A DNA stretch of 60,702 nucleotides, filler included, from Basidiobolus ranarum (Eukaryota), in NCBI GenBank assembly GCA_040143965.1. It is 9 parts of 9 records of this genome, joined end to end, with 100 filler letters (N's around TTAATTAATTAA, not from the genome) between each part and the next. Parts side by side here need not be neighbours in the genome. Positions count along the whole stretch, not along the records: positions 6,771 to 13,433 come from JASJQH010001272.1; positions 13,534 to 20,195 come from JASJQH010001273.1; 7 more parts are not named here. One strand, written 5' to 3'. A program made the position numbers. How positions within the stretch are numbered: position 1 is the stretch's first letter; each line of letters starts with the position of its first letter. This document shows, in pieces, positions 12,001 to 15,000 of the stretch.

Positions 12001-15000
12001 GGATATCAGGGGAGCATTGAGTGTCCGAATTTGCCACCATATCGGTAGGTAACTCCTGGTCACTCTTAAGGCAAATAACAGTGGAGATTTTCACGGTCAA
12101 AACATCGATCTTAGCATTGATATCGCCACAACTAACAGGCGCAGGTGATGTACCAGTAGAATCAGTATTGACATTCACTGTAGCATCCAACGGCAATGGA
12201 GCTGCAATAGCGGAGAAAATTGCGCACAGTACCACCAACAAAGCAAGAATGAAGCGCATGTTTGATGATTAAGATAAGTGATTACTAAAGACTACGTTTC
12301 TTTGGTTTTTATAGGAAACACCAGCATGTAACACCCAAAACCTAGGTACTCCCTGCCTACAATAAGTAAGGTTGGTTAATAATAAGTAAACTGAAATTGT
12401 ATTAAGGTAATAGTGTAAGTAGATCATATGTGCATCTGGTTTCAATTCGATTGAGAATACCCCTACTTTTACCTTTCAATGGGCTGAAGACGTTGATTCC
12501 CTTATCTTCTATAAGCGACTAGATTATACTCTTCGGTAAGCAAGTAAGTAACAGCTCGAGAATATCAATTAAACTCCTATATTAAATAATAAAGAATCTG
12601 GGTTCAAAATGAATTTATGATATTGCTGTGAAGTCAATTGATGCATTTGTGACTTTTACTTCATCAGCAGATCCTGCATCAACATTACAGCATGCTATAT
12701 TATTGCATTTGCAGGAAACAGACTTACTAAGATACTCACCAACGATCATTATCATTCCTATTTACCTAGAATGCAAATTCTAAGCCAAATCTTCACGTTT
12801 TGGAACCAGATCATTGGTGAAATAAGTGAGACTTACGTGATTTGGTGCAAGCAGAAAGTAGAGCTAGAATAAGTGTTTGATAAATTGTCAGTATGCCAAT
12901 ATGATTATTTTATACTTATTTGTACTCCAATGTATACGTAGTAAACGGAGGCTTATTCCATAATAGCATGACTGGAATGATGTACTCCCTTAATTTTCAT
13001 TACTTTTCAAGCTTACCCTTCTTTGTTCACTCTGGGGCGCTATCTCAAGATGTGGCCAAATAACAAATGTAGTGATTTACAAGGATGCCATTGATTTGAA
13101 ACAAGGGCCAGTAGATTCATGGCAAGTTAAAGAATTGCAACACAGATGGTATGTTGATTGTATTAATTCTGCATGCTCCAGTAACATCTCAAGTATTCCA
13201 TGTGCAAAGTCTCTCTGTGCATACTTACCAAAGTAACATAATGCTGTTAAAGAGAGGTAATTCTACACAAGTAGATATGTTCATTTAACAAGTTTGAAAA
13301 AATCTATATATCTGGGAACTTCGTTGACATTTATAGTTTTGTCAAGATGTAAACAAACTAACATGTAGAATATGTTAAGGAAGGTCCCAGGAACATGTGT
13401 GCAAAGTTTGGGGCTTCTAGCACAAGTTTGAAANNNNNNNNNNNNNNNNNNNNNNNNNNNNNNNNNNNNNNNNNNNNTTAATTAATTAANNNNNNNNNNN
13501 NNNNNNNNNNNNNNNNNNNNNNNNNNNNNNNNNTTTGCCTTTAAGTTCTCTCTGAGCTTCCTCCATTTTCTGTATTCTGTTTCAATTGCTTTTTGGTTGC
13601 TTGTTTATTGGTAAACCATTTTGTTTTCAGCAGTACTTTCTTTGTGCATACAGTACAGCAAATCGCGACGTCCAGGATCAATTAGTACACATTTGCTAAT
13701 ACCAGCTTTCAACTCTTCTCTTCCAAACTTCTCCACATACTGAAACTCCTTTTTTGACGCAAGAGACTTTGATTTGGCGCCACTGCCACCCTTCTTCTTT
13801 GTATCGTGGTTTTGCTTTAACACCGACACACCTACACTATCTGTGTACATCATACCTGTAAACTTCATTGACTTGCTTTTTCCTTGTGGTTTCATTACCT
13901 TTGATGTGAGGTCAATAATGGTTCCCCATACTGCTTCCTTATCCAAGTGGCTGGTGATAGAATTCTCAAAGATTTGAGTATTTAAAATATACGTATCGAT
14001 TGTCATGTAGGATTGTATGAAGCCCCTTCTTAACGGAAAGCAGTTGAATGGCTTGTTTTGGAGAGCTTCGCACATACTTGACAGTCTGGCATGCGCCTTT
14101 ATATACTTGAGAGGATTGCTTTTGCAAATCGATAATCTGTCAAATACAAGCCAAAAAGACTACACTTTCCAGCTCCTTGATTCTTTCGTTCTTCTTCAAG
14201 AGTAAGTTAAGAAACATTCTAACTTTGTTTCCGAATTGAAGGTTGACTCCATTCCAATAAGCGGTGACAATTTTTGTCACTTTGATGTGCATAAAGAGAA
14301 GAGAAAAAGTGAATTGATCTCTTTTTTAGTTTATGGATAGAAAAGTTTGTTAAGCATATACTCTAAAAAAACTGATGAGTTACAGCAATGAATTAACCAA
14401 TTTGTCTACAATTTGTTTGTTTACTTATCTCATAATAGGTGCACGATTGGTGGCTTAGACACAAGAATGAATGCTAACATGAGAGTGTGGTGGGTATATA
14501 ATTAATAGTCATAAATGATGGCGTTCTGTTTATATGCATACAATTAACAAATAAAAGTGTCCACTGCTCTATATTTTCACATTCCTCTTCATTTTCCCAT
14601 TGCTGGTTGGCTAATAATATGACAGTCATTTCATGCTTAAACTGTAACCCAGATTTGCGTTTTCAAATTTCGAAATCAACCACTTTTCCATCTTCGATTA
14701 GAATAGTCCAAGCCATATCATTCCGTTTATATCCTTGATTTCTCAGCGACTTCGGCCATATTGGGATTCAATTTCAAGTAGTCGGACAAGGTGGGGAAAG
14801 GCAGGGAATCATTTATAAAGAGAATATCTGCATGAGCTTTCATCATTCAAAAATATTAACATGCCTACTGTTGAAAGTACCCTTTATGAGACTTTTGGTG
14901 GTGAGGAGGTTATCTGGAAGTTGTAGATGTTTTCTACAGCAAATACGTTCTTAATGACCAACGAACCAACCACTTCTTTGTTGGTGTCGATATGGAGGAG

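What the first reader, a model, noticed from the sequence alone, without database searches (positions are those of the whole stretch)
13534..14290. Fanzor1 RNA-guided nuclease remnant
Seen: ordered motifs AYWNGVNLQFG, FNCFPLR...YMTID, FTGMMYTDSVGVSV and RuvC-I IDPGRRDLL (Asp codon 13677-13679), followed by a Lys/Arg-rich helix. Known: this layout matches eukaryotic Fanzor1 (TnpB/Cas12 relatives guided by an omegaRNA at the transposon 3' end). This copy is dead (TAA at 13605, internal deletion), and RuvC-II/III and the omegaRNA would lie beyond the contig end. Inference: the genome hosts or hosted a Fanzor-carrying transposon family, and intact copies could be a new programmable nuclease from a little-sampled lineage.
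Basis: partly seen in the sequence, partly recalled or inferred. Interest (0 to 1): 0.72.

Follow-up and report, generated by a model that had tools for sequence, protein, structure and literature searches.

The report
Dead Fanzor1 nuclease gene fragment
A broken, partial copy of a transposon-borne RNA-guided nuclease gene (Fanzor1) lies at the end of a short contig of the fungus Basidiobolus ranarum; it cannot work and belongs to a family described in 2013, but its nearest relatives are in Rhizopus moulds, which hints at an old transfer between distant fungi.

Summary
It matches solved Fanzor1 proteins: Parasitella PpFz1 at E=8.5e-42 and Spizellomyces SpuFz1 at E=1.3e-15.

The copy is dead:
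- The N-terminal ~127 profile positions are absent.
- 53 codons are replaced by 5 nt.
- A 25-nt deletion shifts the frame.
- TAA (13605-13607) replaces a conserved Tyr.
- The contig ends at 13534, before RuvC-II/III, the zinc finger and any omegaRNA.

About 37% of a 635-position family profile survives.

The host is Basidiobolus ranarum, because a window gene is 100% identical to a protein so named. Five more short fragments of the family are annotated there. No Basidiobolus protein of 323 aa or more was found.

The family is the ROr-3 Fanzor1 family of Rhizopus oryzae (Bao & Jurka 2013), so this is not a new nuclease type.

The one less ordinary point is placement. The Basidiobolus copies nest inside the Mucorales copies, next to Rhizopus arrhizus/delemar. 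An AU test rejects the taxonomic split with 499 columns (p=5e-5) but not with 197 (p=0.11). This favours old cross-phylum transposon transfer. Interest is low to moderate.

The parts
14164..14283 (-). Surviving REC-region piece, first reading frame (...VTKIVTAYWNGVNLQFGNKVRMFLNLLLKKNERIKELES). Weaker similarity may extend to 14316. A stop lies at 14326-14328.
   Evidence: tblastn: P0003 aa 11-50 at 80% identity, E=1e-13; P0027 aa 150-200 reaches 14316. Profile positions 128-167, E=2.1e-15. Coordinates.
14159..14163 (-). Junction of deletion 1. The equivalent of P0003 residues 51-103 (53 codons) is replaced by 5 nt, and the frame shifts.
   Evidence: Frame A ends its homology at 14164 and frame C resumes at 14158. 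The Basidiobolus copy P0204 still holds this segment. Profile positions 168-219 have no match.
14120..14158 (-). Thirteen-codon island LFGLYLTDYRFAK, in a third reading frame between the two deletions.
   Evidence: It corresponds to P0003 104-116 (NLFDSYSTDYRFAK). It is weak on its own: tblastn E=0.95 and profile E=5.8.
14120..14126 (-). Junction of deletion 2. Counted on the relatives' protein sequence, about 25 nt (the codons for GSIYYD plus flanking bases) are lost between two places that would both read TGCAAA, giving a second frameshift.
   Evidence: Sequence printed, with overlapping frame C (..FAK, ends 14120) and frame B (CKSNPL.., starts 14126). Homologues read FAKGSIYYDCKANPL. The 25-nt figure and the microhomology are my inference from codon positions.
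13608..14126 (-). Main open piece (173 of the 184 aa of ORF 13608-14159). It covers the rest of the REC lobe (REC/WED) and the first RuvC segment, with the DPG motif.
   Evidence: phmmer E=8.5e-42 to PpFz1 (9cf0) and 1.3e-15 to SpuFz1 (8gkh). tblastn: P0003 aa 123-318 at 73.6% identity. Profile positions 240-411, E=1e-85.
13677..13679 (-). RuvC-I catalytic Asp codon (D of IDPGRRD).
   Evidence: Coordinates. It aligns with the D of SpuFz1 VVIDPNKRD, which is D383. I derived a chain offset of 394 and checked it on E541 and D606.
13605..13607 (-). In-frame TAA where relatives have Tyr (window VYQ*TSNQ; relatives YRYTSNQ or YQYTNNQ).
   Evidence: Homologues P0003, P0011 and P0027 are; Basidiobolus copies P0174, P0188 and P0195 are.
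13535..13604 (-). Continuation of the same frame after the stop (TSNQKAIETEYRKWRKLRENLKA), cut by the contig end.
   Evidence: Profile positions 414-437, E=1.5e-4.
13434..13533 (.). Artificial linker between contigs (N44-TTAATTAATTAA-N44). It is not biology and marks where the assembly stops inside the element.

Best explanation
This is a non-functional relic of a Fanzor1 gene of the ROr-3 type.

In Rhizopus, ROr-3 is a 2.9-kb element with 133-bp terminal inverted repeats and TA target duplications. It encodes only a ~720-aa omegaRNA-guided RuvC nuclease. The relic sits in the genome of Basidiobolus ranarum.

What survives is part of the REC lobe and the first RuvC segment, including the catalytic Asp. 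The rest is lost or broken:
- The N-terminal part is gone.
- Two deletions shift the frame.
- A Tyr codon has become TAA.
- The assembly breaks inside the element, so the RuvC-II Glu, the zinc-finger/TNB domain, the RuvC-III Asp and the 3' omegaRNA region are not on this contig.

It therefore does nothing now. Its intact ancestor would have bound an omegaRNA transcribed from the element's 3' end and cut TAM-flanked DNA matching the guide, as shown for SpuFz1 and PpFz1.

The copy is one of at least six decayed copies in this genome. The family most likely entered Basidiobolus by horizontal transfer from a Rhizopus-related member of the Mucorales, long enough ago for the copies to diverge to 75-87% identity and decay.

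Shown: identity, lesions, multi-copy status and placement on the tree. Inferred: the ancestral activity, the transfer and its direction.
For: Identity:
- E=8.5e-42 to PpFz1 and 1.3e-15 to SpuFz1.
- 73.6% identity over 196 aa to Rhizopus arrhizus P0003.
- The ROr-3 consensus protein in the supplement of PMC3627910 carries the same TDYRFAK, NCFPLR and DPGRRDLL-type motifs.

Lesions.

Relatives complete the RuvC triad. P0003 aligns through LLDEF and WNRD with SpuFz1 E541 and D606.

Host:
- The window's DPP3 exon is 100% identical to a protein named Basidiobolus ranarum, on a 6647-bp contig. That is the length of window contig 8.
- Contig 3 shares a dispersed repeat (window 17878-18296) with contigs 1, 2, 6 and 8 at 73-95% identity.

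Family in this genome: 5 of the 41 hits in the 'near' length search are named B. ranarum, and all are 158-204 aa.

Placement:
- Basidiobolus rows form one clade (bootstrap 98, SH-aLRT 96).
- That clade is sister to the R. arrhizus/delemar copies (90/85), with R. microsporus next (93/94), inside the other Mucorales.
- With full-length rows (499 columns) the Basidiobolus plus R. arrhizus/delemar group has SH-aLRT 99.
- The AU test then rejects holding all Mucorales copies together (lnL difference 52.6, p=5.3e-05).

Host-gene yardstick: the conserved DPP3 is at most 64% identical to any named fungus outside Basidiobolus among the best 120 listed. None of those 120 is from the Mucorales.
Against: - The same AU test on only the 197 columns that the window copy covers does not reject the taxonomic split (p=0.113).
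- Both AU groups were named after a first tree had been seen. The 499-column tree is a 'quick' search, and all Basidiobolus rows fill under half of its columns.
- I could not see the contigs that carry the other five copies, the reads or the read depth, so a co-assembled Mucorales contaminant is not fully excluded (searches gave no access).
- No terminal inverted repeat, target duplication or omegaRNA was seen here. A 25-nt start of the ROr-3 terminal repeat is not in the window at 3 or fewer mismatches.
- The TAA could be a base-calling error. The two deletions and the missing N-terminus do not depend on it.
Confidence: 0.9

Rival explanations
1. The gene is intact and active in the organism. 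The breaks are artefacts of a fragmented draft assembly, and the C-terminal half simply lies on another contig.
For: The contig does end inside the element. Contig 2 also ends inside a repeat, so repeats do break this assembly. A single TAA could be an error.
Against: - 53 conserved codons are replaced by 5 nt, and a further 25 nt are missing with frame changes.
- Profile positions 1-127 are found nowhere in the window.
- All five other annotated copies are also short and damaged. For example, P0195 reads DPGCRNLLCC and P0174 skips from the helix region to HDLLRC.
Confidence: 0.03
2. Contig 3 and the other Fanzor-bearing contigs come from a contaminating Rhizopus-like Mucorales fungus co-assembled with Basidiobolus, so there was no transfer.
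For: - The nearest relatives are all Rhizopus.
- Contig 3 holds no conserved protein gene that could be placed taxonomically: none of the 26 ORFs scanned reached a Pfam curated cut-off (4 sub-threshold matches, best E=0.017).
- GC content does not discriminate.
Against: - Contig 3 carries a dispersed repeat also present on contig 8, beside the DPP3 gene that is 100% B. ranarum and 92% B. meristosporus, and on contigs 1, 2 and 6.
- The six copies form their own clade, 74-81% identical to each other and no closer than 73.6% to any database Rhizopus copy.
- CpG observed/expected of the remnant (0.56) matches the rest of the contig and the other gene-bearing contigs (0.57-0.85).
Confidence: 0.1
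3. The family is ancient and was inherited vertically from the common ancestor of Zoopagomycota and Mucoromycota. The resemblance to Rhizopus copies reflects slow evolution or lineage sorting among old paralogues.
For: - Fanzor1 relatives also exist in Syncephalis, another member of the Zoopagomycota.
- The AU test on 197 columns does not reject a tree with all Mucorales copies together (p=0.113).
Against: - Syncephalis copies are only 36-40% identical to the window copy, against 73.6% for R. arrhizus.
- Copies from other Mucorales genera are only 45-56% identical.
- A conserved host enzyme, DPP3, is at most 64% identical to any named non-Basidiobolus fungus listed.
- The AU test with 499 columns rejects the split (p=5.3e-05). 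Holding 12 Rhizopus rows together is weakly rejected (p=0.036).
Confidence: 0.12
4. The truncated piece has been exapted: a REC/WED-only protein with a new, nuclease-independent role.
For: A 184-aa stretch is open.
Against: - The open stretch begins in a frame-shifted junction with no homologous start and ends at a nonsense codon inside a conserved motif.
- No protein of the window's own appeared in either protein search. All listed hits carry other sources.
- The copies differ in which parts they keep, as expected of neutral decay.
Confidence: 0.02

Closest known systems
ROr-3, a Fanzor1 transposon family of Rhizopus oryzae RA 99-880 (Bao & Jurka 2013, PMC3627910; passages and supplement files 1-3 seen through searches)
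   Same: The consensus protein shows the same ordered motifs: KIVTAYLNGV..QFGNKVRMFLNLLLKKNERIK, TDYRFAK, FNCFPLR, YMTID, TDGVGVSVLKQ and DPGRRDLL, followed by YRYTSNQKAIETK. Database proteins of R. arrhizus and R. delemar of this type are the best long hits, at 66-74% identity.
   Different: ROr-3 is 2862 bp with 133-bp terminal repeats, TA duplications and a 720-aa, two-exon protein. The window copy keeps about a third of the coding region and no recognisable ends. Its host belongs to a different fungal phylum. I could not align DNA to the ROr-3 consensus.
PpFz1, Parasitella parasitica Fanzor1 (PDB 9cf0-9cf3; Xu et al. 2024, PMC11423790; passages and section 7 read)
   Same: 169 aligned residues, E=8.5e-42, including CVL(I/M)DPGRRDLLYCM. 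It has the same REC-WED-RuvC order.
   Different: PpFz1 is active, full length, and has a ~100-aa FRI insertion in RuvC that binds cyclophilin. The closest long relative of the window copy, P0003, lacks that insertion: the alignment skips PpFz1 chain positions 987-1091. On the tree PpFz1 is in a different, deeper Mucorales clade.
SpuFz1, Spizellomyces punctatus Fanzor1 (PDB 8gkh; Saito et al. 2023, PMC10432273; passages seen)
   Same: E=1.3e-15 over 164 residues. The window Asp aligns with catalytic D383 in the D-P-x motif.
   Different: It is far more distant. SpuFz1 is an active omegaRNA-guided nuclease with D383/E541/D606, and the window copy retains only the first of the three positions.
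Bacterial TnpB (IS200/IS605, IS607) and Cas12
   Same: According to the papers read, Fanzor, TnpB and Cas12a share the RuvC catalytic core, and Fanzors derive from TnpB.
   Different: No direct similarity was seen here. Pfam gave no OrfB/TnpB hit for the fragment. It gave only a sub-threshold Cas12f1-like TNB hit (E=0.0011, 19.5 bits against a cut-off of 26.3) for the full-length relative P0027.

Membership tests
Fanzor1 | Significant sequence similarity to experimentally characterised Fanzor1 proteins | tested here: met
   PpFz1 E=8.5e-42; SpuFz1 E=1.3e-15; GtFz1 only E=0.57.
Fanzor1 | RuvC-I catalytic Asp in the D-P-G/N motif | tested here: met
   IDPGRRD, with the Asp codon at 13677-13679. 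It aligns with SpuFz1 D383.
Fanzor1 | RuvC-II catalytic Glu | not testable with these tools
   It lies beyond the contig end at 13534, and the genome and reads were not available. It is present in relatives: P0003 LLDEF aligns with SpuFz1 E541, and the Basidiobolus copy P0195 has LLDEFKT.
Fanzor1 | C4 zinc finger / TNB domain and RuvC-III Asp (the 'RD' motif) | not testable with these tools
   Beyond the contig end. Present in P0003: CPSC...HGLLRC and WNRD, aligned with SpuFz1 D606. The motif definition is from Bao & Jurka 2013.
Fanzor1 | Uninterrupted full-length reading frame (about 600-850 aa) | tested here: not met
   236 of 635 profile positions survive in three frames, with a TAA. This copy is a pseudogene of the family, not a working member.
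Fanzor1 | omegaRNA encoded at the 3' end of the element | not testable with these tools
   The 3' end is not on the contig. Rfam found only a tRNA on contig 3.
ROr-3-type element (TA duplication, long terminal inverted repeats) | Terminal inverted repeats and TA target-site duplication | tested here: inconclusive
   The first 25 nt of the ROr-3 terminal repeat are absent from the window at 3 or fewer mismatches. At ~70% DNA identity this test is weak. The 5' end appears deleted and the 3' end is off the contig.
ROr-3-type element (TA duplication, long terminal inverted repeats) | Protein groups with the R. arrhizus/delemar ROr-3-like copies on a tree | tested here: met
   Basidiobolus clade plus R. 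arrhizus/delemar clade: 90/85 and SH-aLRT 99.

The most novel reading that the evidence does not exclude
A ROr-3-type Fanzor1 transposon crossed between fungal phyla, from a Rhizopus arrhizus/delemar-like member of the Mucorales into Basidiobolus (Zoopagomycota). It multiplied there and then decayed. If the invasion was followed by long activity, an intact, Basidiobolus-adapted Fanzor1 with its omegaRNA may still exist in parts of the genome that this fragmented assembly or its annotation missed.
Probability: 0.55. Interest if true: 0.4.

Novelty: new member of a known kind. Interest (0 to 1): 0.27.

Why it matters
As a nuclease it does not matter. The copy is dead, and its family is already described, with a related protein solved at atomic resolution.

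It has modest value as a record of where Fanzor1 elements have been. No paper in the searched library mentions Fanzor together with Basidiobolus. The placement of the Basidiobolus copies inside the Rhizopus part of the tree is a concrete, testable case of eukaryote-to-eukaryote spread of Fanzor elements. Saito et al. 2023 proposed such spread only in general terms.

For anyone mining Fanzors, the practical message is to search the whole Basidiobolus assemblies for full-length copies before investing in this locus.

Tried and rejected
- Own-genome search: no genome is held for this window.
The TAA, the deletions and read depth could therefore not be checked in reads.
- Earlier findings of this scan: nothing by place, sequence or words.
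- Pfam on the fragment pieces: only chance-level hits.
- Pfam on the long relatives P0003 and P0037: no family. P0027 gave a sub-threshold Cas12f1-like TNB hit. The PF26935 label attached to the database hits is apparently not in the local Pfam copy, so I could not see what it models.
- tblastn with 7 homologues and a 16-sequence profile over all nine contigs: no second Fanzor piece in the window.
- Pfam on 26 ORFs of contig 3, to find a taxonomic marker: nothing significant (one search was a coordinate slip).
- Inverted-repeat search around the dispersed repeat: none.
- The ROr-3 terminal-repeat 25-mer: no match.
- First AU test (197 columns): not significant, p=0.113. It is reported as evidence against.
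- An intron reading of the frame changes: rejected. The gaps remove conserved codons instead of adding sequence, and only 5 nt separate the first two frames.
- RIP-like or CpG-targeted decay of the remnant: rejected. CpG observed/expected is 0.56, like its surroundings.
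Full report
**What is there**

The window is not one piece of DNA. It is nine contigs of about 6.65 kb joined by N44-TTAATTAATTAA-N44 linkers. The finding lies at the low-coordinate end of the third contig (13534-20195), on the minus strand.

The Asp codon is at 13677-13679, and the TAA is at 13605-13607 in the same frame as the coding sequence on both sides.

**Is it more than chance, and what family is it**

The 184-aa open piece matches the PDB sequences of Parasitella parasitica Fanzor1 (E=8.5e-42, 169 aligned residues) and Spizellomyces punctatus Fanzor1 (E=1.3e-15). 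The next hits are at E=0.18 or worse. Pfam gave nothing useful for the fragment or its long relatives.

In the large protein collection, 46 proteins of 323 aa or more match:
- 43 carry an organism name.
- 39 of those are from the Mucorales: Rhizopus, Helicostylum, Gilbertella, Thamnidium, Cokeromyces, Pilaira, Parasitella and Mucor.
- 4 are from Syncephalis.
- The best is a Rhizopus arrhizus protein, P0003, at 73.6% identity over 196 aa.

The supplement of Bao & Jurka 2013 holds a consensus protein named ROr-3 with the same run of motifs. Their table lists ROr-3 as a 2862-bp element of Rhizopus oryzae with 16 copies, 133-bp terminal inverted repeats, TA target duplications and a 720-aa protein in two exons. 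The window copy therefore belongs to a family named in 2013.

**The catalytic triad**

Saito et al. 2023 give D383, E541 and D606 as the metal-binding residues of SpuFz1 (passage seen). In the solved chain these sit at positions 777, 935 and 1000. I counted this offset of 394 from the alignments, and all three land on D, E and D.
- The window Asp aligns with D383.
- The closest long relative, P0003, continues through LLDEF and WNRD, aligned with E541 and D606, with the zinc-finger cysteines between them.
- One Basidiobolus copy, P0195, reaches LLDEFKT.

**How the copy is broken**

A profile of 16 homologues has 635 positions. The window matches positions 128-167, 240-411 and 414-437, and nothing else in the 60.7 kb scores better than E=0.13. 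Seven homologues run by tblastn give the same picture.

Reading the three frames shows the following:
- Detectable homology starts at 14283, possibly 14316. A stop lies at 14326-14328, and there is no trace of the first ~127 profile positions.
- After ...KKNERIKELES (ending at 14164), 53 codons present in P0003 and in the Basidiobolus copy P0204 are replaced by 5 nt.
- Thirteen codons (LFGLYLTDYRFAK, 14158-14120) follow in another frame.
- A second deletion removes the codons for GSIYYD with a frame change. By my count it is 25 nt, between two TGCAAA hexamers.
- TAA replaces the Tyr of the conserved YRYTSNQ.
- The contig ends 70 nt later.

The frame changes cannot be introns, because they remove conserved codons. 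The copy is dead whether or not the TAA is a sequencing error.

**Whose genome**

A dipeptidyl-peptidase III exon elsewhere in the window (51568-52533) is 100% identical to a protein named Basidiobolus ranarum. That protein lies on a 6647-bp contig, the exact length of window contig 8. It is 92% identical to the B. meristosporus protein. The best named fungi outside the genus reach 64% (Syncephalis, Actinomortierella), and no Mucorales protein is among the 120 listed.

A search among proteins of 101-322 aa found 41 hits. Five are named B. ranarum (158-204 aa, on five different contigs) and are 75-87% identical to the window copy where they overlap. Each keeps a different part of the protein and carries damaging changes.

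The genome thus holds at least six decayed copies. No long Basidiobolus copy was seen, although unannotated ones cannot be excluded.

**Is contig 3 really Basidiobolus**

Contig 3 has no conserved protein gene. None of the 26 ORFs scanned reached a Pfam curated cut-off; there were only 4 sub-threshold matches, the best at E=0.017.

However, a dispersed repeat at 17878-18296 recurs on contigs 1, 2, 6 and 8 at 73-95% identity, and contig 8 carries the DPP3 gene. Contig 2 ends inside this repeat. The remnant's CpG observed/expected (0.56) matches its surroundings. This argues against a contaminant contig, but it is indirect evidence.

**Where the family came from**

*First trees, on the 197 columns the window covers.*
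- Quick tree, 71 rows. Rows kept were those covering at least 55% of the window piece, 69 of the 87 homologues fetched, plus P0195 and the window.
- Careful tree, 52 rows. Ten unnamed rows and ten redundant or long-branched Rhizopus rows were dropped, and P0188 was added.
- The Basidiobolus copies form one clade (98/96).
- That clade is sister to the R. arrhizus/delemar copies (90/85), then the R. microsporus copies (93/94).
- All of these sit inside copies from other Mucorales genera, with Syncephalis as outgroup.
- The AU test on these 197 columns does not reject a tree that keeps all Mucorales copies together (p=0.113).

*Second tree, full-length rows.* This used 38 rows chosen by me, 499 columns and a quick search.
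- The Basidiobolus plus R. arrhizus/delemar group has SH-aLRT 99.
- The same AU test rejects the split (lnL difference 52.6, p=5.3e-05).
- Keeping 12 Rhizopus rows together without Basidiobolus is weakly rejected (p=0.036).

*Caveats.*
- The groups were named after a first tree was seen.
- The larger tree is a quick one.
- Basidiobolus rows fill only 31-40% of its columns.

*Reading.* A dead transposon gene is 73.6% identical between two phyla. Copies within the Mucorales fall to 45-56%, and a conserved host enzyme reaches at most 64%. Taken together, I read this as old horizontal transfer of the element, probably from a Rhizopus-related donor. My probabilities:
- horizontal transfer, about 0.6-0.65
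- contamination, about 0.1
- vertical descent, about 0.12

Direction is inferred only from the nesting.

**How it works**

The relic itself does nothing. Its intact ancestor, by homology with SpuFz1 and PpFz1, would have been an omegaRNA-guided RuvC endonuclease. The REC and WED domains clamp a TAM duplex, the guide pairs with the target strand, and D/E/D with magnesium cut the DNA. The omegaRNA would be encoded at the element's 3' end. Of this machinery only part of the REC lobe and the first catalytic Asp remain here.

**Verdict**

The element is an ordinary pseudogene of a known Fanzor1 family in a new host. The only point of some interest is the probable cross-phylum transfer.

No paper in the searched library pairs Fanzor with Basidiobolus. 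Saito et al. 2023 propose spread among eukaryotes in general terms.

Noticed in passing
whole window; linkers at 6671-6770, 13434-13533, 20196-20295, 26956-27055, 33714-33813, 40466-40565, 47217-47316 and 53964-54063: The window is nine separate contigs, 6639-6670 bp in descending length, joined by N44-TTAATTAATTAA-N44 linkers. Neighbourhood across a linker means nothing.
   Followed up: yes
contig 1 (1-6670) and contig 5 (27056-33713): Decayed Ty1/copia-type retrotransposon copies: RVT_2 E=7e-20, rve, gag_pre-integrase and Pol beta-barrel. The two contigs share 72-88% identical stretches. CpG observed/expected is only 0.06, against 0.57-0.85 on the other seven contigs. This suggests CpG-targeted mutation of these repeats (methylation-driven deamination or a RIP-like process). 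The Fanzor remnant does not show it.
   Followed up: partly
window 17878-18296 (contig 3). Also contig 1 at about 1381-1726, the end of contig 2 at 13323-13433, the end of contig 6 at about 40261-40465, contig 8 at about 47747-48489, and weakly contig 9.: A dispersed repeat of about 300-400 bp, with internal direct repeats of about 60 bp, is shared by at least five contigs at 73-95% identity. Two contigs end inside it, so it is a cause of assembly breaks. Its type was not determined. No inverted repeat of 20 nt or more was found.
   Followed up: partly
window 16816-17763 (+): A 315-codon open frame starts internally with MKFSAPKLLCLLSGLAAINAA, which looks like a signal peptide. It continues as a long Gly/Asn/Asp-rich repeat of the form GNGGAGAYDAGKGGNGNG. 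It has no Pfam family. The region has a strong GC skew of 0.23.
   Followed up: no
window about 14861-15021 (+): Short frames read MPTVESTLYETFGGEEVIW and, one frame over, EVVDVFYSKYVLNDQRTNHFFVGVDMEEQRT. From memory they resemble the start of a truncated haemoglobin, with a frame break between them. Pfam did not support this for the 38-aa piece, so it is an unverified impression.
   Followed up: partly
window 19037-19108 (+): tRNA-Thr gene, anticodon CGT: Rfam 64.8 bits and ARAGORN.
   Followed up: yes
window 51568-52533 and 53172-53885 (-): Exons of a dipeptidyl-peptidase III gene. The first is 100% identical to a protein named Basidiobolus ranarum. A second B. ranarum paralogue is 85% identical, and two B. 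meristosporus proteins are 92% and 82% identical, so the gene is duplicated in the genus.
   Followed up: partly
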